64,000 bases of DNA, taken from assembly GCA_039802005.1 (NCBI GenBank), contig JBDRVV010000013.1, positions 1,385 to 65,384 on the forward strand, read 5' to 3'. Below the pieces are notes generated by a model. The model was not told the origin of the DNA, did not search any database, and saw nothing but the letters and a program-made list of their open reading frames with translations. Shown here in pieces: positions 927 to 15,802 of this stretch. The translations under genes and the position numbers were made by a program. Position 1 is the first letter of the stretch. Each line of letters begins with the position of its first letter. The DNA comes from a candidate division WOR-3 bacterium (GTDB lineage Bacteria > Hydrothermota > Tepidihabitantia > SM23-42 > JAOAFX01).

Positions 927-3437
927 TTATCTTTTTCTCAACATGTCAATCAAAAATCTTGATGGTAATTGCTGTCGGCCCGAACGGTATTTGGGATATA
1001 AAAGATAGAGCCTTTTCTGGGCACGGGTGACTGCCACATAGCAGAGTCTTCTTTCTTCTTCAAGGTCTCTTGGCTCAGATAAACTCTTGGTCATTGGAAA
1101 TATCTCTTCTACAAGGTCCACGACAAAGACCACAGGAAATTCCATTCCCTTGGCACTGTGCACGGTCATCAATTTCACGGTATCCTTTGCCCAGTCAGCA
1201 AGGTCCATTTCTTGATACAATTTCAAATCACTCAAGAATTTTCCAATCCCTGTTTCAGTATAATTCTGGGCGAAATTTAAAAATTCTTCAAGATTCTCGG
1301 ATTTTAATTTCAATATTCCGACCAATTCATTGATAATGGTGTAGGGTGATAATACATTTAGATTCTGGATATGGTGCTCGACAATCTTTTCCAATTTATT
1401 TTGCACGCTCTTTGTGACTCTGAAAATAGAAACCCCCTGGGTGATAGATTCTTGAGATATTTCAGCAGATTTGCAGATATTTAAAAATTCAAGGTATTCT
1501 ATGATTGACTTGAATTCTTCTTTCTCATAAAATGTTGTGCCACGAATAGTTGTAAAAGGAATACCTGCCTTTGATAAACCTTCTTCATAACTTTTACCGA
1601 GATAATTCATGCGATAGAGAATGACAATATCGCGATAAGCAAAATCCAGTTCTGCAAGGTCTTTTATTTCTTTAACAATATAATCAATTTCGTCGTTTAT
1701 TGAGTCCGCTGCATAGAAAATTACATCACCGGTCTCTAAGTTGGGAATGGCGGTCGTTTCTCGCTGCATCAGGTTATTGGCAATTTCAAGGATTGATTGG
1801 GGAAGGCGGAAACTTCGATTGAGATGGAATATTTTGACATCTTTGAAATCCCGGGCGACCCGATAAATGATTTCTTTGCTTGCGCCCCGCCAGCCATATA
1901 TTGCTTGATCTTCATCACCAGTAAAGAAAAAGTTATCTCTCAATAGCAGGGAGATAAATTTATACTGGGCGGGATTTATATCCTGGAGTTCGTCAACAAA
2001 GATATATTCAAACATACTTTGATAATGTTCCCGTAGATCTTGATATTCTTCTAATAACTTTGTGGCATAAATAATCAGGTCGTCATAATCAAGAATATTG
2101 TTATCTTTCAGGTACTGCTGATATTCTTTATAAATTTTGAGACAGACCTTCTGCCATTCATTTGCCGGTGCAAATTTTTCCGGGGTAATTCCTTTTGCCT
2201 TGAGTATTTCGATCGTTCTGATTATCGCATTCATTTTATACTTTCCGGTTTCAGTCTTCAATAATGGAAATATTTTTCTTGGTTCTTCAATAATGAAATC
2301 TTCACAGATATCAAGCCGTTCGCAATCGCGACGAAGAATTCTCAGGGCAACGGTGTGGAATGTGCCAATCCAAAAGTCATACTGGGGCGACGGAACAAAC
2401 TGGCTCAGTCGTGTCTTTATATCATTTGCTGCTTTATTGGTAAATGCACAGACAAGGATACGCGATGGTGGAATACCTTTCTCAATGAGTTTTAAAATTC
2501 CATAGACAAGGCTTGTAGTCTTACCGCAACCCGCCTGTCCCAGAACAAGTATTTTGCCATCAAGGTTGTTTATTATCTGCTCCTGGTCCGGGGTCAATTT
2601 TAATTCACCTTTCTTCTTTTCAGGGACACCTATCGTTGACTCAATTTTTATACCTTTTGTTTGTTTCTTTAAAATTTTCGTTATTGCTTCTGAATCAGGT
2701 CTTAATTCAGGATTTGTATTAAGGCATTTTATGATAATATCTTCAAGGTATCCAGGTAGATTTGGTCTTACCATACTCGGAATTAACAACTTACTCTTTT
2801 CAATCTTCTTTTTTAAACCATCAAGGTTGTCATCAAGAAAAGGCGGGATGCCAGTGAGTAGTTCATAAAAGATAACACCGATACTCCAGATATCAGACTT
2901 CTCGCTGAATTTTCCCGACCATACCTCGGGTGCCATATAGATTGGCGTGCCGGCAGTTGATGCCGCAATTGAGCCGGTCTTTAAAAAACGGGCAAGTCCG
3001 AAATCAGTAATCTTGATTGTGTTATTTTCGGTTATTAAGATGTTCTCAGGTTTTAAATCACGATGGAGCACACCAGTTTTATGCGCATAACTTATTCCAT
3101 CAAGTATCTGCTGGGCAATATTTAAGAATTCATTTATCTCAATGCCCCCTTCTTTTATGATTTCTCTTAAAGTTTTGCCTTTTATGTATTCCATCACAAG
3201 GACAAACTTATTTTCAATGAAATCTATATTATAAAAACGGACGATATTGGGATGATTTAAAGAGGCAAGGAGTTTTGCCTCATCCTTGAGCATTACGATT
3301 TCTTCTTTGCGCATCCGGGAAATCTTTAAGGCAAATTGAGTTTCAAGGATTGTGTCATAAGCCAGAAAGACATCGCCGAATCGGCCGCCGCCGAGCCATT
3401 CAATGATTTCGTATTTACCGAGTTTTTTTAGAAGCAT
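927..3437 (-). CDS. Fusion protein: N-terminal Hanks-type Ser/Thr protein kinase domain + C-terminal UvrD/Rep-family SF1 DNA helicase
   Basis: Kinase motifs: GxGxxG (LGGGRFGDV), VAIK-like (ALK), HRDLKPEN, DFG, APE. Helicase motifs: GQAGCGKT (I), TGDEDQAIYGWRGA (IV), HSAKGMEFPVVFVVD (V), EEERRLCYVAVTRAQKRLYL (VI). Confidence 0.8.
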   Translation of the reverse strand: MLLKKLGKYEIIEWLGGGRFGDVFLAYDTILETQFALKISRMRKEEIVMLKDEAKLLASLNHPNIVRFYNIDFIENKFVLVMEYIKGKTLREIIKEGGIEINEFLNIAQQILDGISYAHKTGVLHRDLKPENILITENNTIKITDFGLARFLKTGSIAASTAGTPIYMAPEVWSGKFSEKSDIWSIGVIFYELLTGIPPFLDDNLDGLKKKIEKSKLLIPSMVRPNLPGYLEDIIIKCLNTNPELRPDSEAITKILKKQTKGIKIESTIGVPEKKKGELKLTPDQEQIINNLDGKILVLGQAGCGKTTSLVYGILKLIEKGIPPSRILVCAFTNKAANDIKTRLSQFVPSPQYDFWIGTFHTVALRILRRDCERLDICEDFIIEEPRKIFPLLKTETGKYKMNAIIRTIEILKAKGITPEKFAPANEWQKVCLKIYKEYQQYLKDNNILDYDDLIIYATKLLEEYQDLREHYQSMFEYIFVDELQDINPAQYKFISLLLRDNFFFTGDEDQAIYGWRGASKEIIYRVARDFKDVKIFHLNRSFRLPQSILEIANNLMQRETTAIPNLETGDVIFYAADSINDEIDYIVKEIKDLAELDFAYRDIVILYRMNYLGKSYEEGLSKAGIPFTTIRGTTFYEKEEFKSIIEYLEFLNICKSAEISQESITQGVSIFRVTKSVQNKLEKIVEHHIQNLNVLSPYTIINELVGILKLKSENLEEFLNFAQNYTETGIGKFLSDLKLYQEMDLADWAKDTVKLMTVHSAKGMEFPVVFVVDLVEEIFPMTKSLSEPRDLEEERRLCYVAVTRAQKRLYLLYPKYRSGRQQLPSRFLIDMLRKR

Positions 3438-10631: not shown

Positions 10632-12272
10632 TTAATTGCTTACAATAACAATTGTAGTATTCAAACTATAGTTTCCTTTTTCCAACAGTACCAGATATAC
10701 GCCTGAATTCAAATCCCTAAATGAGTAGTTTAATGCATATCTTCCTGCATTCTTAAACCCATTTTCAATTATCCTTACCAGCCTGCCATCAATGGAATAG
10801 ACTTTTAAAGAAATATGCCCTGCTTCAGGAATAGTATAAGTAATCACCGCATTATCCCGCACCGGATTGGGGGAAATATTTAAAGAAAATTTTTGTGGTT
10901 TTTCCTGTTTCTGCTCTTGGATACCCGTAATCGCCTGCCTGCCCCAGTACCACCTTGCCGGATGAGAATACTGCCAGCCCTTCCAGCACATCCATATCGG
11001 GTCTAAATCCGCAACCATATCCTGACCAAAGACATAAAAGAATTGATTATTCTGGGTATCAATCCGCTTGGCAATTTGCGCCAGCCCATGCCGATAACCA
11101 AAACTGCCTGTAATATTACGCGGTGTATGCCAGTTCAACCCACCATCCGTTGAATAATTATAATACAGATTCCAAAACGCCAGTGAATCCTGTCCCGCTC
11201 CTGCCTGGGAATGCCAGAGACCAATGAGATAATCTCCACCCGTAGCAATCGTGGGATAGAAGTTCCTATTTAAGCCAGTAGATATTTCTCTACATACCTG
11301 CCCTGAACCCGGTGAGACATAGATTTTCCCAGTCGTTGGATAATTGCCAGCAATATAATCCTGATAATCAATATTATCAAATATCAATTTGGGCTCACCA
11401 TTGTCCATAACCACGGCCTGGGTCCAGAAGACCAAATTGGAATCAAAGGGCTCAGGCCAGACCATATTGTAAACCTGTTCTGATGACCAGTTTATGCCAT
11501 CGGTTGTCGTGCGGTAGTAGATATTCAAGAGTGTATCATAGTAAAAGATATAGGCAATACCATTATTAATATCAAATCCCCAGTATCTACGATAATCAGG
11601 ATTGATATAACCACCCGCCAGATGGGTCGTGAGATTACAATTGTAGGTGCGATAGATAAGACGGATGCGCCCTGAAAGATCATTTTCAACCATTCCAATA
11701 AAGATAAGATTACCGTTGGGTAGTTGTTTGCCAACATTCCGCATTGTGTTTACAATACCTGGTCCTAAATCAGTTGGCGCATCCCAGTATGAGGACCACC
11801 AGCCACCGGTTTCAAATTGCGCAACCAATCTTGAAGAAGCTACATATCCGCAATTATAAGAGATATGTGGTCCACTTCCCGCGGTATTAAATCCCGAGGC
11901 AATTGAATTGGGATAATGACACGCACCAAATTGTCCAGTATATACGCCAAAGTCAGTTAGTGATAGAGTAAAGAAATTATCGGTCTGTGAAACACTTAAA
12001 TTTAATCCCGATAGGTAACTTCTACACACAAACTGTAGTCCGGCAACCATTGGATTATATGACAAACATTCTTGTATTTGAGTCCACATTGACCAGGCTG
12101 TACCCGAGTCTATTACAAAAAAATCATTTGACATAATCACAGGTGTATGTGGTTGATTGTATAATCCTGGTGCTTCTGAAGACATCGGCTCATGACTCAC
12201 AATATCTATCGGCAAGGTTATTGCTATAATTATATTAAACACAATCAGAAGCAAGAAGACAAGTCTCATCAT
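10632..12272 (-). CDS. BNR-repeat (sialidase-like beta-propeller) surface protein with T9SS C-terminal domain, paralog A
   Basis: Signal peptide. BNR motifs (STDGGLNWH, TTDGINWS). T9SS CTD-like tail. AAGGAGG RBS. The central ~0.9 kb of DNA is nearly identical to paralog B. Confidence 0.7.
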   Translation of the reverse strand: MMRLVFLLLIVFNIIIAITLPIDIVSHEPMSSEAPGLYNQPHTPVIMSNDFFVIDSGTAWSMWTQIQECLSYNPMVAGLQFVCRSYLSGLNLSVSQTDNFFTLSLTDFGVYTGQFGACHYPNSIASGFNTAGSGPHISYNCGYVASSRLVAQFETGGWWSSYWDAPTDLGPGIVNTMRNVGKQLPNGNLIFIGMVENDLSGRIRLIYRTYNCNLTTHLAGGYINPDYRRYWGFDINNGIAYIFYYDTLLNIYYRTTTDGINWSSEQVYNMVWPEPFDSNLVFWTQAVVMDNGEPKLIFDNIDYQDYIAGNYPTTGKIYVSPGSGQVCREISTGLNRNFYPTIATGGDYLIGLWHSQAGAGQDSLAFWNLYYNYSTDGGLNWHTPRNITGSFGYRHGLAQIAKRIDTQNNQFFYVFGQDMVADLDPIWMCWKGWQYSHPARWYWGRQAITGIQEQKQEKPQKFSLNISPNPVRDNAVITYTIPEAGHISLKVYSIDGRLVRIIENGFKNAGRYALNYSFRDLNSGVYLVLLEKGNYSLNTTIVIVSN

Positions 12273-12294
12273 TCCTCCTTAATTACACAATAAT

Positions 12295-12322
12295 ATTATA
12301 CTCAAAAAAAAAAAATAGTCAA
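12295..12322 (-). promoter_or_regulatory. Sigma70-like promoter of paralog A: TTGACT-16 nt-TATAAT, with a 12-nt poly-T (A12 on + strand, 12304-12315) filling the spacer
   Basis: Read directly: the reverse complement gives TTGACTaTTTTTTTTTTTTgagTATAAT, followed by AAGGAGG and ATG. Confidence 0.6.
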
Positions 12323-12388
12323 GGGTATAATGCAATAGGGTGGGAATTCTTCCCACCCTTGCAATGAAACCCGCACAGAAGATTATAA

Positions 12389-12502
12389 AATCGGGAAGCA
12401 AGCGCTTCCACAACAACCCGGATAGCATATCATGCTAATTTCAACTTCGGTTTCTCTATTTTTATCTTCCATACAGGTTATCGGTTGGATCAGGATTTCC
12501 AT
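12389..12502 (-). CDS. Unannotated 37-aa Cys-rich peptide MEILIQPITCMEDKNRETEVEISMICYPGCCGSACFPIL; candidate RiPP precursor
   Basis: The ATG lies 1 nt after the TAA stop of the radical SAM gene, with an AGGAGGTG RBS inside that gene's 3' end. Five Cys residues cluster toward the C-terminus. A hairpin (GGGTGGGAAgaaTTCCCACCC, 12346-12366) lies downstream. Confidence 0.5.
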
Positions 12503-12503
12503 C

Positions 12504-13880
12504 TTAATCACCTCCTTTCATCACTTGCCCTTTATCCAGGGCAGTCTTTTCAAGATATTTATTTAATAATCCCCAGAAATGGTCGCATATTGCAGATTTC
12601 AACTCACTTTCAGTTTTGCATTTCTTTCTTATAACCTGGCATCCCCCCATACATAATGGCAATAGTTTACAGGATTTGCAGGGTTCTGTATCACAGGGAT
12701 GCTTTTCAAAAAAGTAGTTTATATACTGCTGATTGGGGATGAATTTACCTTCTTTTATATAACCAACTTCATCTCCGATGTCTAAATGAGAGGTACATTT
12801 ATAAACGCGGCTGTTTGGACCGACTGTGTATATACCAAAGACTTGTGCTCCACAATAAAAACTTCTTACCGGCAGCGCATTGGGAAATACTGTGTCAATA
12901 TCTTCTTCTTTGTCACTTGTTATCTTTCTAATTGCTTCATATATTGCGTTATACTCGTGGGCAGAAAATCCTTTTTCTTGAGGTGCGAAATCTGCACATT
13001 TTTGAGTATAATCTCTTAATTTCCCGGGGCGTACTACAGTATTCTTACCATATAACCAATCTGTTTTTCTTAAGAATTCAAGTACAGCATTTGCGTTATC
13101 TCGGTCAATATTTAATCTAATATCAACATGGTCAAAATATTTTTTTGCGATGATTATTGCCTCTTTTATTCTTCCAAATGTTGGTTTACGGTTTTTAAGT
13201 GGCCGGCGTCGGTTATGAACTTCCTCGGGTCCATCAAGGGTTATCTGAATCAATTTTACATTGGAATTTATTAATTCTCGGGCTATTTCTTCGGTTAAAA
13301 GATATCCATTAGTAACAATATTCGCCTCATATCTAATTTTATTAGCAGAAGCAATATTTATTAATTCAGAGCTCAATTGTTTGATTCTATCATATGCCAG
13401 TAATGGTTCGCCACCATACCAAGAAATTGATATTCCTTCTGGTTTTACCCGTTGTATCTCCGAATTTATGAACTTTAATACATTGTTGCAGTCTTGGATA
13501 GTCATTGTTTCATTAATTTCGCTCTCAAAGCAATAAATACAACGAAAATTACATGCCCGAGTAGGGAGCATCGTGATAGAAAGATTTCGCCGTTCAAATG
13601 CACCTCTGAAGGCACGGAATTTTACAAATTCAATTTCATTTACATTATCTTCTACAATAAAACCACATTCAAACATTTTTGAAAAAAGATCGTCCCTGTT
13701 AGTTCTAAGAGTAAGGTTATTAGGATTTTCTAATAAGTTTGAGACATCACTCAGATCGCAGTTTCGCACAAAAGCCAGTGCTCCAGTATAAGTGTTGTAT
13801 AAAAGATTAACCTTGCCGTCTGTACTTTTGTACCAATAATTATAGATTGATTGTTTATAATTTTTACTTGTCTTCATTGT
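12504..13880 (-). CDS. Radical SAM / SPASM-domain peptide-modifying enzyme with an N-terminal RRE(PqqD)-like domain
   Basis: CNFRCIYC (CxxxCxxC) radical SAM motif. C-terminal Cys-rich SPASM region (CGAQ...CTSH...CDTEPCKSCKLLPLCMGGCQ). An N-terminal ~100-aa region precedes the core. The ATG at 13880 is preferred over the GTG at 13994. Confidence 0.75.
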   Translation of the reverse strand, partial: TMKTSKNYKQSIYNYWYKSTDGKVNLLYNTYTGALAFVRNCDLSDVSNLLENPNNLTLRTNRDDLFSKMFECGFIVEDNVNEIEFVKFRAFRGAFERRNLSITMLPTRACNFRCIYCFESEINETMTIQDCNNVLKFINSEIQRVKPEGISISWYGGEPLLAYDRIKQLSSELINIASANKIRYEANIVTNGYLLTEEIARELINSNVKLIQITLDGPEEVHNRRRPLKNRKPTFGRIKEAIIIAKKYFDHVDIRLNIDRDNANAVLEFLRKTDWLYGKNTVVRPGKLRDYTQKCADFAPQEKGFSAHEYNAIYEAIRKITSDKEEDIDTVFPNALPVRSFYCGAQVFGIYTVGPNSRVYKCTSHLDIGDEVGYIKEGKFIPNQQYINYFFEKHPCDTEPCKSCKLLPLCMGGCQVIRKKCKTESELKSAICDHFWGLLNKYLEKTALDKGQVMKGGD

Positions 13881-14161
13881 TCGTCCCTGTTGCTTACATA
13901 AGTTTTTAATGCAAATTTCGTGCCCAGACAAAAATGTTGAAATTTCAGAAGTTTTAATTTTAACTTTTGGGAAAAAGTGTGAAAATTTATACACTATTTA
14001 TGGACACCATCAAAAACTCACGAAATTTGATAGATTTGTGAAATACAAAAGTGTATACTATTTAAACTCATTTTACACTATTTTTACACCTTTGATTTAT
14101 TTCTATACCCAGGCAATCATAATTGATCATTGCTGGAACACTTAATTCGTTCCGGGTTATG

Positions 14162-15802
14162 CTATTTTAAAAATGCAAAGAGACTGCTGGTGTTCCACTT
14201 TCCATTTTCAAGCATAAGCACATATATCCCGGCATTTAAATCATTGAATGAGCAGTCTAATTTATATCTTCCTGCATTCTTAAACCCATTTTCAATTATC
14301 CTTACCAGCCTGCCATCAATGGAATAGACTTTTAAAGAAATATGCCCTGCTTCAGGAATAGTATAAGTAATCACCGCATTATCCCGCACCGGATTGGGGG
14401 AAATATTTAAAGAAAATTTTTGTGGTTTTTCCTGTTTCTGCTCTTGGATACCCGTAATCGCCTGCCTGCCCCAGTACCACCTTGCCGGATGAGAATACTG
14501 CCAGCCCTTCCAGCACATCCATATCGGGTCTAAATCCGCAACCATATCCTGACCAAAGACATAAAAGAATTGATTATTCTGGGTATCAATCCGCTTGGCA
14601 ATTTGCGCCAGCCCATGCCGATAACCAAAACTGCCTGTAATATTACGCGGTGTATGCCAGGTCAATCCTCCATCCGTTGAATAATTATAATACAGATTCC
14701 AAAACGCCAGTGAATCCTGTCCCGCTCCTGCCTGGGAATGCCAGAGACCAATGAGATAATCTCCACCCGTAGCAATCGTGGGATAGAAGTTCCTATTTAA
14801 GCCAGTAGATATTTCTCTACATACCTGCCCTGAACCCGGTGAGACATAGATTTTCCCAGTCATTGGATAATTGCCAGCAATATAATCCTGATAATCAATA
14901 TTATCAAATATCAATTTGGGCTCACCATTGTCCATTACCACTGCTTGGGTCCAGAAGACTAAATTGGAATCAAAGGGCTCGGGCCAGACCATATTGTAAA
15001 CCTGTTCTGATGACCAGTTTATCCCATCAGTGGTAGTGCGATAGTAGATATTCAAGAGTGTATCGTAGTAAAAGACATAGGCAATACCATTATTAATATC
15101 AAATCCCCAGTATCTACGATAATCAGGATTGATATAGCCACCAGCAAGCTGGGTCGTGAGATTGCAATTATAGGTGCGATAGATAATTTTTCTATCATCA
15201 GAATAGTTTTCTATAGTAACCGCAATAAATAATATGTTTCCATTCGGAAATTGCTTACCGATATTCCACCAGGCTTTATTTATTCCTGGTCCGAGGTCAA
15301 CCGGTGGATCCCAATATGAAGACCACCAACCACCAGTTTCAAATATTCCTACCATTCTGGAATATGTTAGATAACCACAAGAAAGAGAGACATGAGGTCC
15401 AGAACCTGCAATATCAAAACCTGAGGCAATGGCAGATGGATATATAAACCCACCAAATTGACCTGTGTATACGCCGATATCAGTTAATGAAAAAGAAAAG
15501 AGGTTATCTGTTTGGGAAACATTCAAATATAAGCCGGTTCCAAATTCATGGCAAACAAATAATAGACTACCGACTAAAGCATTGTATGCCAGACATTCAT
15601 GACTTTGTGTCCAAAGAGAGTAGGCGTAAACAGAGGAGTCAACAGGTGAAAAGGAATTTGAGTTAACTATCGGAGTGTGTGATAGATTGTAAGTTTTATG
15701 CTCTTGATTTAATAGCACTAGCTCAGGTGGATTAATAGGGATACTAATCGTCACTGCCCTACTAATTTGAATGAGAATAAGAAAGAAACAAATATTTCTC
15801 AT
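14162..15802 (-). CDS. BNR-repeat surface protein with T9SS C-terminal domain, paralog B
   Basis: Same architecture as paralog A. The N-terminal ~170 aa and the last ~35 aa are diverged; the core is near-identical at the DNA level. Confidence 0.7.
   Translation of the reverse strand: MRNICFFLILIQISRAVTISIPINPPELVLLNQEHKTYNLSHTPIVNSNSFSPVDSSVYAYSLWTQSHECLAYNALVGSLLFVCHEFGTGLYLNVSQTDNLFSFSLTDIGVYTGQFGGFIYPSAIASGFDIAGSGPHVSLSCGYLTYSRMVGIFETGGWWSSYWDPPVDLGPGINKAWWNIGKQFPNGNILFIAVTIENYSDDRKIIYRTYNCNLTTQLAGGYINPDYRRYWGFDINNGIAYVFYYDTLLNIYYRTTTDGINWSSEQVYNMVWPEPFDSNLVFWTQAVVMDNGEPKLIFDNIDYQDYIAGNYPMTGKIYVSPGSGQVCREISTGLNRNFYPTIATGGDYLIGLWHSQAGAGQDSLAFWNLYYNYSTDGGLTWHTPRNITGSFGYRHGLAQIAKRIDTQNNQFFYVFGQDMVADLDPIWMCWKGWQYSHPARWYWGRQAITGIQEQKQEKPQKFSLNISPNPVRDNAVITYTIPEAGHISLKVYSIDGRLVRIIENGFKNAGRYKLDCSFNDLNAGIYVLMLENGKWNTSSLFAFLK

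What the first reader, a model, noticed from the sequence alone, without database searches (positions are those of the whole stretch)
12346..13994. RiPP-like pair: radical SAM/SPASM maturase translationally coupled to an unannotated 37-aa Cys-rich peptide
The rSAM gene carries CNFRCIYC plus a C-terminal SPASM Cys cluster, and ~100 aa before the core resemble a PqqD-like RRE. Its stop codon is followed 1 nt later by an ATG encoding MEILIQPITCMEDKNRETEVEISMICYPGCCGSACFPIL, with the RBS AGGAGGTG embedded in the maturase 3' end. A hairpin follows the peptide. The peptide is below the ORF-track cutoff, so routine annotation would miss it. A Cys-rich C-terminal core next to a SPASM enzyme is the signature of sacti-, ranthi- or SCIFF-type thioether peptides, but the precursor lies downstream rather than upstream, and the pair sits between two variable surface-protein genes.
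Basis: partly seen in the sequence, partly recalled or inferred. Interest (0 to 1): 0.75.

Follow-up and report, generated by a model that had tools for sequence, protein, structure and literature searches.

The report
Radical SAM maturase with small Cys-rich peptide
This is a real two-gene cassette from an uncultured WOR-3-type bacterium, in which a radical SAM enzyme most likely cross-links a conserved 39-residue cysteine-rich peptide; it is an unnamed branch of an already recognised kind of peptide natural-product system.

Summary
On the minus strand, a 457-aa radical SAM/SPASM gene (13877→12504) is followed 1 nt after its stop by a 39-aa ORF (12502→12383; 39 aa, not 37). A GGAGGTG Shine-Dalgarno lies inside the enzyme's 3' end, and a strong hairpin follows the peptide.

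The small ORF is a real gene. A peptide with the same N-terminal motif (MEIL..P.T[C/A]LE) and a Cys-rich C-terminus lies just downstream of the enzyme in all 12 related locus types fetched (enzyme identity 34-65%). Synonymous sites are saturated (pS 0.77-0.85) while pN is 0.12-0.25.

The enzyme has CxxxCxxC, seven SPASM cysteines and an N-terminal domain that folds like a RiPP recognition element. Its best structural matches are CteB and TigE. Its best sequence models are Clo7bot, CefB and TIGR04463 maturases, all far below their cut-offs. The peptide matches no model. Only 7-9 peptide clusters exist in billions of proteins.

An anaerobic sulfatase maturase is excluded. The downstream position of the precursor is common in this superfamily. 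The chemistry is inferred, most likely Cys thioether cross-links.

Two of the three nearest relatives carry a damaged maturase. Verdict: new member of a known kind, of moderate interest.

The parts
12504..13877 (-). Radical SAM/SPASM peptide maturase gene, 457 aa (ATG 13877, TAA 12506-12504)
   Evidence: Translation. Pfam Radical_SAM 72 bits. Best NCBIfam matches are RiPP maturases: Clo7bot 250, CefB 236 and TIGR04463 196 bits, all below cut-off. AF2 model pLDDT 94.4. Foldseek best hits are CteB, TigE and anSME.
13587..13877 (-). N-terminal RRE-like domain (residues 1-97): strands followed by three helices
   Evidence: AF2 on the domain alone gives pLDDT 92.1. Top Foldseek hits are RRE-bearing proteins: the TigE N-terminus (TMq 0.70, rmsd 3.1), lasso B1 proteins with bound leader (5v1v, 6jx3), CteB, MccB, SuiB and LynD. 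All have E > 1e-3. No Pfam PqqD hit was found.
13530..13553 (-). CNFRCIYC, the CxxxCxxC motif that binds the SAM-cleaving [4Fe-4S] cluster (residues 109-116)
   Evidence: C109, C113 and C116 are invariant in 101 homologues.
12585..12854 (-). SPASM region with seven conserved Cys (C342, C361, C400-x2-C403-x5-C409-x3-C413, C431), for two auxiliary Fe-S clusters
   Evidence: Invariant or nearly invariant columns. Pfam SPASM is matched by 15 of 101 family members but not by this protein itself.
12509..12516 (-). Shine-Dalgarno AGGAGGTG for the peptide, inside the last codons of the maturase
   Evidence: Sequence. GAAAGGAGGTGAT is conserved in L161 and L163. The same sequence shows up as an in-frame 'KEVI' or 'KGG' just before the start codon in L165-L169 and L173.
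12383..12502 (-). Precursor peptide gene, 39 aa: leader MEILIQPITCMEDKNRETEVEIS, Cys-rich core MICYPGCCGSACFPIL (the boundary is inferred)
   Evidence: Homologous small ORFs lie immediately downstream of the enzyme in 12 of 12 locus types. pS is 0.77-0.85 against pN 0.12-0.25. No NCBIfam or Pfam match.
12331..12363 (-). Stem-loop after the peptide stop codon, the probable 3' end or stabiliser of the two-gene transcript
   Evidence: -28.9 kcal/mol, z = -3.7. Not followed directly by a T-run.
13910..13925 (-). Tentative sigma-54 type -24/-12 element GGGCACGAAATTTGCA, 49 nt upstream of the maturase ATG
   Evidence: A loose consensus has 6 matches on the two strands of the 64-kb window. Similar elements occur only upstream of L169 and L171, so it is not conserved across the family.

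Best explanation
This is a minimal two-gene RiPP cassette.

Shown:
- The 39-aa gene is translated from its own conserved Shine-Dalgarno, here directly coupled to termination of the maturase.
- The peptide has a conserved N-terminal leader (M-E-I-[IL]-x-x-P-x-T-[C/A]-[LM]-E) and a variable C-terminal core. Its only invariant core residues are cysteines.
- The enzyme has an RRE-like N-terminal domain, a CxxxCxxC radical SAM core and a seven-Cys SPASM domain.

Inferred:
- The RRE-like domain binds the leader.
- The radical SAM cluster cleaves SAM to a 5'-deoxyadenosyl radical, which abstracts a hydrogen atom from a core residue.
- A core cysteine held at an auxiliary cluster then captures the carbon radical. 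This gives intramolecular thioether cross-links of the sactipeptide or ranthipeptide type. PapB and Tte1186 work this way (PMC10177961).

No dedicated protease or exporter is conserved with the pair. Release and export, if they happen, would use generic functions, or the product acts inside the cell.

My confidence that this is a real maturase-precursor pair is about 0.9. My confidence that the chemistry is Cys-thioether cross-linking is about 0.55-0.6.
For: Conservation of the peptide ORF, with the same leader motif and the same strand and position, across enzyme identities of 34-65%.

Saturated synonymous against low non-synonymous divergence, and loss of DNA similarity right after the stop codon.

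Conserved Shine-Dalgarno.

The peptide is the only gene that always accompanies the enzyme.

In locus L168 two tandem rSAM genes each have their own peptide, and the MEIL-type peptide goes with this clade's enzyme.

All radical SAM and SPASM cysteines are intact and invariant.

The high-confidence model is most similar to the thioether-forming SCIFF maturase CteB, E = 5e-18. The N-terminal domain has an RRE fold.

The best-scoring families are all maturases of Cys-rich peptides. Peptides next to ~30%-identical relatives share an M-[EKD]-[YWFI]-[IL]-x-x-P start and Cys-rich cores, and some are recognised CefA or Clo7bot peptides.

Published surveys note that two- or three-gene rSAM-peptide pathways are mostly thioether or cyclophane formers (PMC9062424).
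Against: No chemistry was or could be tested here.

Every named maturase model is missed by a wide margin (250 against 600 bits at best). As far as I know, the nearest named families (Clo7bot, CefB, TIGR04463) are themselves uncharacterised; literature searches found nothing on them.

TigE, the second-best full-length structural match (TMq 0.67 against 0.60 for CteB) and the best match of the RRE-like domain, makes cyclopropylglycine, not thioethers (PMC9062424).

Precord et al. state that rSAM chemistry cannot be predicted from overall similarity unless identity is very high (PMC10288494).

Only two core cysteines are invariant across the whole peptide family.

In two of the three nearest relatives the maturase is damaged, by an in-frame TAA in L161/L162 and by large deletions in L175. 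The cassette is therefore dispensable and may be decaying in this lineage.
Confidence: 0.6

Rival explanations
1. The same maturase-precursor pair, but the enzyme performs a different radical reaction on the core. Candidates are C-C or C-O cross-links, epimerisation, cyclopropanation as in TigE, or oxidation of a Cys side chain as in anSME. The cysteines would then serve for metal binding or disulfides.
For: TigE is the best structural match of the RRE-like domain and has the highest full-length TM-score. All thioether-family models are far below cut-off. rSAM function is not predictable at this level of divergence (PMC10288494). The core also has conserved Pro, Gly, Phe and Trp residues near the cysteines.
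Against: The only invariant core residues are cysteines. The whole surrounding superfamily has Cys-rich substrates. There are no TVGG-type repeats or Aro-x-x motifs typical of cyclopropylglycine or cyclophane precursors.
Confidence: 0.25
2. The cassette in this genome is an inactive remnant on its way to loss, so the pair has no present function.
For: The closest relatives show decay. L161/L162 have an in-frame TAA after about residue 57 of the maturase. L175 keeps only residues 305-360 and 423-451 of the maturase while its peptide ORF is intact. About 900 nt of near-identical direct repeat flank the cassette and could delete it by recombination.
Against: The window's enzyme is full length. 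It retains every invariant residue of the 101-sequence alignment. The Shine-Dalgarno and start codons are intact. A 99%-identical full-length copy exists in another public data set (P0001).
Confidence: 0.1
3. The enzyme is an anaerobic sulfatase-maturating enzyme or another protein maturase that acts on a neighbouring protein, for example the flanking T9SS-sorted proteins. The small ORF would then be incidental.
For: By sequence, the best solved-structure match is anSME, E = 5e-15. T9SS-sorted proteins lie next to the pair in the window, L161 and L175.
Against: The anSME model scores 88 bits against a 349-bit cut-off, while RiPP maturase models score 196-250 bits. No sulfatase was found among the 22 neighbouring genes scanned between 927 and 29638. 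anSME lacks the N-terminal RRE-like domain present here. T9SS neighbours are absent from most related loci, whereas the peptide is always present.
Confidence: 0.03

Closest known systems
CefA/CefB (NCBIfam NF038108 / NF038107, 'Cys-every-fifth' RiPP peptide and its rSAM/SPASM maturase)
   Same: Same domain plan: N-terminal extension, radical SAM core and SPASM domain. The model aligns over residues 8-444 at 236 bits. The precursor is short, with an M-E-[YW]-I-x-x-P type start and a Cys-rich core. In L040 a peptide scoring above the CefA cut-off (37.7 against 30 bits) lies downstream of its maturase, as here.
   Different: The enzyme score is far below the 600-bit cut-off. The window's peptide does not match the CefA model. 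Its Cys spacing is C-x3-CC-x3-C, not a cysteine at every fifth position.
Clo7bot peptide / maturase (TIGR04333 / TIGR04334)
   Same: This is the best-scoring enzyme model, 250 bits over residues 8-419. Clo7bot-like peptides next to ~30%-identical relatives share the short leader and Cys-rich core.
   Different: 250 bits against a 600-bit cut-off. The peptide has no hit. There is a single precursor gene here rather than tandem copies (the tandem arrangement is my recollection of the family description, not tested).
SCIFF system (ScfA/ScfB; CteB structures 5why/5wgg)
   Same: A two-gene peptide plus rSAM/SPASM cassette without a dedicated protease or exporter. CteB is the top Foldseek match over the full length, E = 5e-18. 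It has an RRE, a radical SAM core and a SPASM domain.
   Different: The SCIFF maturase model scores 61 bits against a 425-bit cut-off. The peptide has no SCIFF match. In SCIFF the precursor lies upstream (from my knowledge of the family), whereas here it is downstream. The phyla differ: SCIFF is described in Clostridia (from my knowledge of the family), whereas this cassette comes from WOR-3/TA06-type uncultured lineages.
PapB / freyrasin ranthipeptide system
   Same: An rSAM/SPASM maturase of a Cys-rich core. It offers a mechanistic template, with the substrate Cys bound to an auxiliary cluster before C-S bond formation (PMC10177961).
   Different: 110 bits against a 340-bit cut-off, and only the region from residue 100 onward aligns. 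The core has no repeated C-x3-D motif.
TigE (8vpo), poly-cyclopropylglycine synthase
   Same: Highest full-length TM-score (0.67) and the best match for the isolated N-terminal domain, TMq 0.70.
   Different: 18-23% identity. TigE's substrate has TVGG repeats and TigE makes no thioethers (PMC9062424). The substrate here is Cys-rich.

Membership tests
RRE-dependent radical SAM/SPASM RiPP maturase with adjacent precursor (general kind) | CxxxCxxC radical SAM cluster motif | tested here: met
   CNFRCIYC at residues 109-116, invariant in 101 homologues. Pfam Radical_SAM 72 bits.
RRE-dependent radical SAM/SPASM RiPP maturase with adjacent precursor (general kind) | C-terminal SPASM seven-Cys motif (C...C, CX2CX5CX3C, C) | tested here: met
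   C342, C361, C400, C403, C409, C413 and C431 are conserved. The Pfam SPASM model itself is not matched by this protein, but 15 of 101 relatives match it.
RRE-dependent radical SAM/SPASM RiPP maturase with adjacent precursor (general kind) | RiPP recognition element (PqqD-like winged helix) fused or adjacent | tested here: inconclusive
   The fold of residues 1-97 (pLDDT 92) matches RRE-bearing proteins best: TigE TMq 0.70, lasso B1, CteB, MccB and LynD. All have E > 1e-3. No sequence-level PqqD hit was found. Leader binding was not tested.
RRE-dependent radical SAM/SPASM RiPP maturase with adjacent precursor (general kind) | Co-conserved short precursor with a conserved leader and a variable core | tested here: met
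   12 of 12 related locus types have it downstream on the same strand, and it is under purifying selection.
Sactipeptide / ranthipeptide (thioether RiPPs) | Cys sulfur to alpha-carbon (sacti) or to beta/gamma-carbon (ranthi) thioether in the mature peptide | not testable with these tools
   This needs mass spectrometry or NMR of the modified peptide.
PapB-type ranthipeptide maturase (NF047865) | Score at or above the curated cut-off (340 bits) | tested here: not met
   110.4 bits.
SCIFF (TIGR03974 maturase) | Maturase score at or above 425 bits and a SCIFF-type six-Cys precursor | tested here: not met
   61.1 bits. The peptide has five Cys and matches no NCBIfam model even at E <= 10.
Clo7bot (TIGR04334 / TIGR04333) | Maturase at or above 600 bits and peptide at or above 31 bits | tested here: not met
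   250.1 bits for the enzyme and no hit for the peptide.
CefA/CefB (NF038108 / NF038107) | Maturase at or above 600 bits, peptide at or above 30 bits, and a Cys at every fifth residue | tested here: not met
   235.6 bits for the enzyme, no peptide hit, and spacing C-x3-CC-x3-C.
Anaerobic sulfatase-maturating enzyme (TIGR03942) | Score at or above 349 bits, and a sulfatase substrate gene | tested here: not met
   87.7 bits. No sulfatase was found among the neighbouring genes scanned between 927 and 29638.

The most novel reading that the evidence does not exclude
The MEIL-leader peptides and their maturases may form a distinct, uncharacterised RiPP class confined to uncultured phyla (WOR-3, TA06 and relatives). 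The enzyme would install a cross-link type or topology not yet described, for example one involving the conserved vicinal Cys-Cys pair. The product would act as an intracellular or signalling molecule rather than a secreted antibiotic, given the lack of any conserved protease or exporter and the occasional link to sigma-54 regulators.
Probability: 0.15. Interest if true: 0.6.

Novelty: new member of a known kind. Interest (0 to 1): 0.38.

Why it matters
The cassette adds a small, well-defined and unnamed precursor-maturase family to the set of radical SAM RiPPs. It comes from phyla with no cultured members and no characterised natural products.

The cassette is only about 1.5 kb and the substrate is now unambiguous. 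That makes it a clean candidate for heterologous reconstitution.

It also illustrates that genuine 39-aa genes are missed in about half of the related assemblies. It does not challenge current understanding: thousands of comparable rSAM-RiPP clusters are already catalogued.

Tried and rejected
1. The related-loci scans of genome and metagenome collections used very generic patterns (WYGGEPLL, CNxxCxYC). They returned only ~30%-identical relatives. These were useful as an outgroup but not for orthologues. Orthologous loci had to be fetched one by one.

2. Pfam PqqD/RRE detection by sequence found no hit for the window protein or any of 101 relatives.

3. Literature searches for Clo7bot, CefB, FlmE and OhkG found nothing relevant. 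I could not establish whether any member of the nearest named families has been characterised.

It was repeated with a 44-aa first row.

5. The exhaustive HMM search of 1.84 billion representatives added no new peptide members beyond 7 clusters. The other hits (P0130-P0133) are long proteins matched in 5-17 short stretches and were judged spurious.

6. A sigma-54 promoter as a family trait was rejected. It is present upstream in the window, L169 and L171 only.

7. Rfam found no meaningful RNA family in 12150-14300.

8. The hairpin as a canonical intrinsic terminator was rejected, because no T-run directly follows the stem.

9. A functional link to the T9SS or TonB neighbours was rejected, because it is conserved only among the nearest relatives (against 15, 20-23, 27-30).
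Full report
**What is in the sequence.** Both genes lie on the minus strand.

The long ORF listed as 12504-13994 starts at a GTG. Alignment with homologues places the true start at ATG 13877, giving a 457-aa protein. It carries CNFRCIYC at residues 109-116. Seven further cysteines follow the SPASM pattern: C342, C361, C400-x2-C403-x5-C409-x3-C413 and C431. All are invariant or nearly so in alignments of 18 and 101 homologues.

Its TAA stop (12506-12504) is followed by one base and then ATG 12502. This opens a 39-codon ORF ending at 12383: MEILIQPITCMEDKNRETEVEISMICYPGCCGSACFPIL. AGGAGGTG sits in the last codons of the enzyme, with GGAGG 8 nt before the ATG.

A stem-loop at 12331-12363 follows. 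It folds at -28.9 kcal/mol, z = -3.7, and none of 200 shuffles folds as well. It has no adjoining T-run. Next comes a near-consensus TTGACT-16-TATAAT promoter (12322→12295) in front of the next gene. The pair therefore looks like its own two-gene unit.

**Is the small ORF a gene?** Yes. I fetched the contigs encoding the closest enzyme homologues (34-65% identity).

In every locus type, a small ORF lies immediately downstream on the same strand. This holds for L161/162, L163/164, L165/166, L167, L168, L169, L170, L171 (GTG start), L172, L173 and L174, and also for L175, which was found through the peptide. Each ORF has the same N-terminal motif, M-E-I-[IL]-x-x-P-x-T-[C/A]-[LM]-E, and a Cys-rich C-terminus. 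Examples:
- MDIIIQPITCMEDKNRECETEISLICYPRCCGSACFPVL
- MDITKQPLTCLECKNRETDAEIALVCHSGCCASSCFAIL
- MKIIETGLTCLEFDNSGNDIEIKKTCSGFPCGNTCWAIWIKDKN
- MEILRNPITALEIKVARPGGEVVEGCCPTLFIPVCTGEYEVAIT
- MEILRENLAELETRDSESSSCPGAICLQVSCCPTNICPSSMICT

Between the window, L161 and L163, synonymous sites are saturated (pS 0.77-0.85) while non-synonymous divergence is low (pN 0.12-0.25). DNA similarity collapses right after the stop codon, and the GAAAGGAGGTGAT ribosome-binding site is conserved.

The spacing between the two genes ranges from a 4-nt overlap to about 176 nt (coordinates). Tight coupling is therefore a local feature, not a family trait.

The motif does not occur anywhere in 160 loci of ~30%-identical relatives. 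The peptide family is specific to this enzyme clade.

**What the enzyme is.** The best NCBIfam matches are all maturases of Cys-rich peptides:

| Model | Bits | Cut-off |
|---|---|---|
| Clo7bot | 250 | 600 |
| CefB | 236 | 600 |
| TIGR04463 | 196 | 525 |
| FlmE/OhkG | 165 | 500 |
| Geopeptide | 131 | 400 |
| PapB | 110 | 340 |
| anSME | 88 | 349 |
| SCIFF | 61 | 425 |

It therefore belongs to this superfamily but to no named family.

An AlphaFold model built on 101 homologues is confident, with pLDDT 94.4. It matches the thioether-forming SCIFF maturase CteB best (E = 5e-18). TigE (TMq 0.67) and anSME follow.

Residues 1-97, modelled alone (pLDDT 92.1), form strands followed by three helices. 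Their best PDB matches are RRE-bearing proteins: the TigE N-terminus (TMq 0.70), lasso B1 proteins crystallised with their leaders, CteB, MccB, SuiB and LynD. None reaches E ≤ 1e-3, and there is no sequence-level PqqD hit.

**Context.** The only constant partner of the enzyme is the peptide. Other partners appear sporadically:
- An ABC transporter and an S9 peptidase in L167.
- Two ABC transporter genes in L171.
- A Ser/Thr-kinase-sigma-54-activator fusion upstream in L165/166 and L171.
- TPR proteins in several loci.

In the window, the neighbours are housekeeping or envelope genes and there is no sulfatase. This, the model scores and the extra N-terminal domain exclude an anaerobic sulfatase maturase.

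**Comparison with what is known.** Relatives at ~30% identity also sit next to Cys-rich small ORFs beginning M-[EKD]-[YWFI]-[IL]-x-x-P. In a crude survey these ORFs were upstream in 34 loci, downstream in 18 and on both sides in 8.

Some of them are recognised family members. The L040 peptide, which lies downstream, scores above the CefA cut-off, and others approach the Clo7bot cut-off. A downstream precursor is therefore normal in this superfamily.

The window's peptide matches no NCBIfam or Pfam model. A word-indexed profile search of 5.8 billion proteins found 9 clusters, none of them named. An exhaustive HMM search of 1.84 billion representatives found 7 peptide clusters plus spurious hits to long multi-stretch proteins. 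This is a rare, unnamed subfamily of a known kind.

**Mechanism.** The shown parts are the coding status of the peptide, the domain plan, the intact cluster ligands, and the leader/core organisation with invariant core cysteines.

The inferred parts are leader capture by the RRE-like domain, hydrogen abstraction by the 5'-deoxyadenosyl radical, and capture of the carbon radical by a cluster-bound cysteine to give thioether cross-links. PapB and Tte1186 have been shown to work in this way (PMC10177961).

The inference is limited. rSAM chemistry cannot be read from overall similarity at this distance (PMC10288494). TigE, a close structural match, does something quite different (PMC9062424). I put the RiPP-pair claim at about 0.9 and the thioether claim at about 0.55-0.6.

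**A complication.** Two of the three nearest relatives have damaged maturases.
- L161/L162 carry an in-frame TAA after about residue 57. It is present in contigs from independent samples.
- L175 is fully syntenic with the window. It retains only residues 305-360 and 423-451 of the enzyme, yet its peptide ORF and Shine-Dalgarno are intact.

The window's copy is intact, and a 99%-identical copy exists elsewhere (P0001). The cassette is clearly dispensable in this lineage.

**Verdict.** The pair is a new, unnamed member of the known rSAM/SPASM family of Cys-rich peptide systems. Its chemistry is untested. It makes a tidy target for reconstitution rather than a surprise.

Noticed in passing
window 10740-11640 and 14267-15167 (genes 10632-12272 and 14162-15802, minus strand): The two T9SS-sorted paralogues flanking the cassette share about 900 nt at 92-100% identity, as a direct repeat 3527 nt apart. 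Their N-terminal thirds and extreme C-termini have diverged (77% protein identity overall). The upstream copy is absent from the syntenic loci L161 and L175, so it is a lineage-specific duplication with apparent gene conversion. Recombination between the repeats would delete the rSAM-peptide pair.
   Followed up: partly
L175 7717-7972 and 8001-8120; L161 4968-4976: The maturase is decaying in the nearest relatives. L175 keeps only two fragments of the rSAM gene but has an intact peptide gene and Shine-Dalgarno. L161/L162 have an in-frame TAA that splits off the first ~57 residues of the RRE-like domain.
   Followed up: yes
window 13910-13925 (-), 14019-14029, 13987-13999, 14071-14083: A sigma-54-like element, GGGCACGAAATTTGCA, lies 49 nt upstream of the maturase start. 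An 11-nt perfect inverted copy (CACGAAATTTG) lies 96 nt further upstream, and there are repeated AATAGTGTA-type motifs. In L165/166 and L171 the gene upstream of the maturase is a Ser/Thr kinase fused to a sigma-54 activator. The promoter motif recurs only in L169 and L171.
   Followed up: partly
L168 2379-5631: Two tandem rSAM/SPASM genes each have their own Cys-rich peptide, in a mirror arrangement: peptide-rSAM then rSAM-peptide. The first peptide (MEYIMEPLAITVDEELRIARPCNLSCWLSHCPPVSWDPCGTVA) lies upstream of a 32%-identical paralogue. A C25 peptidase gene precedes them.
   Followed up: no
window 927-3437 (-): An 836-aa protein fuses an N-terminal Ser/Thr protein kinase domain to a complete UvrD/REP helicase. 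This is an unusual domain combination.
   Followed up: no
L170 1307-3567: Five tandem paralogous genes of 111-127 aa without Pfam matches lie directly upstream of the maturase in the TA06 genome.
   Followed up: no
window 12295-12322 (-): A near-consensus sigma-70 promoter, TTGACT-16-TATAAT (11 of 12 matches), lies between the hairpin and the downstream T9SS gene. That gene therefore appears to be transcribed separately from the cassette.
   Followed up: no
window residue C293 of the maturase (about 12999-13001): An extra cysteine (C293) is conserved in relatives at ≥37% identity (shifted in P0016) and absent from P0018, P0020 and P0022 (33-34%). It could be an additional cluster ligand or a catalytic residue.
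   Followed up: no
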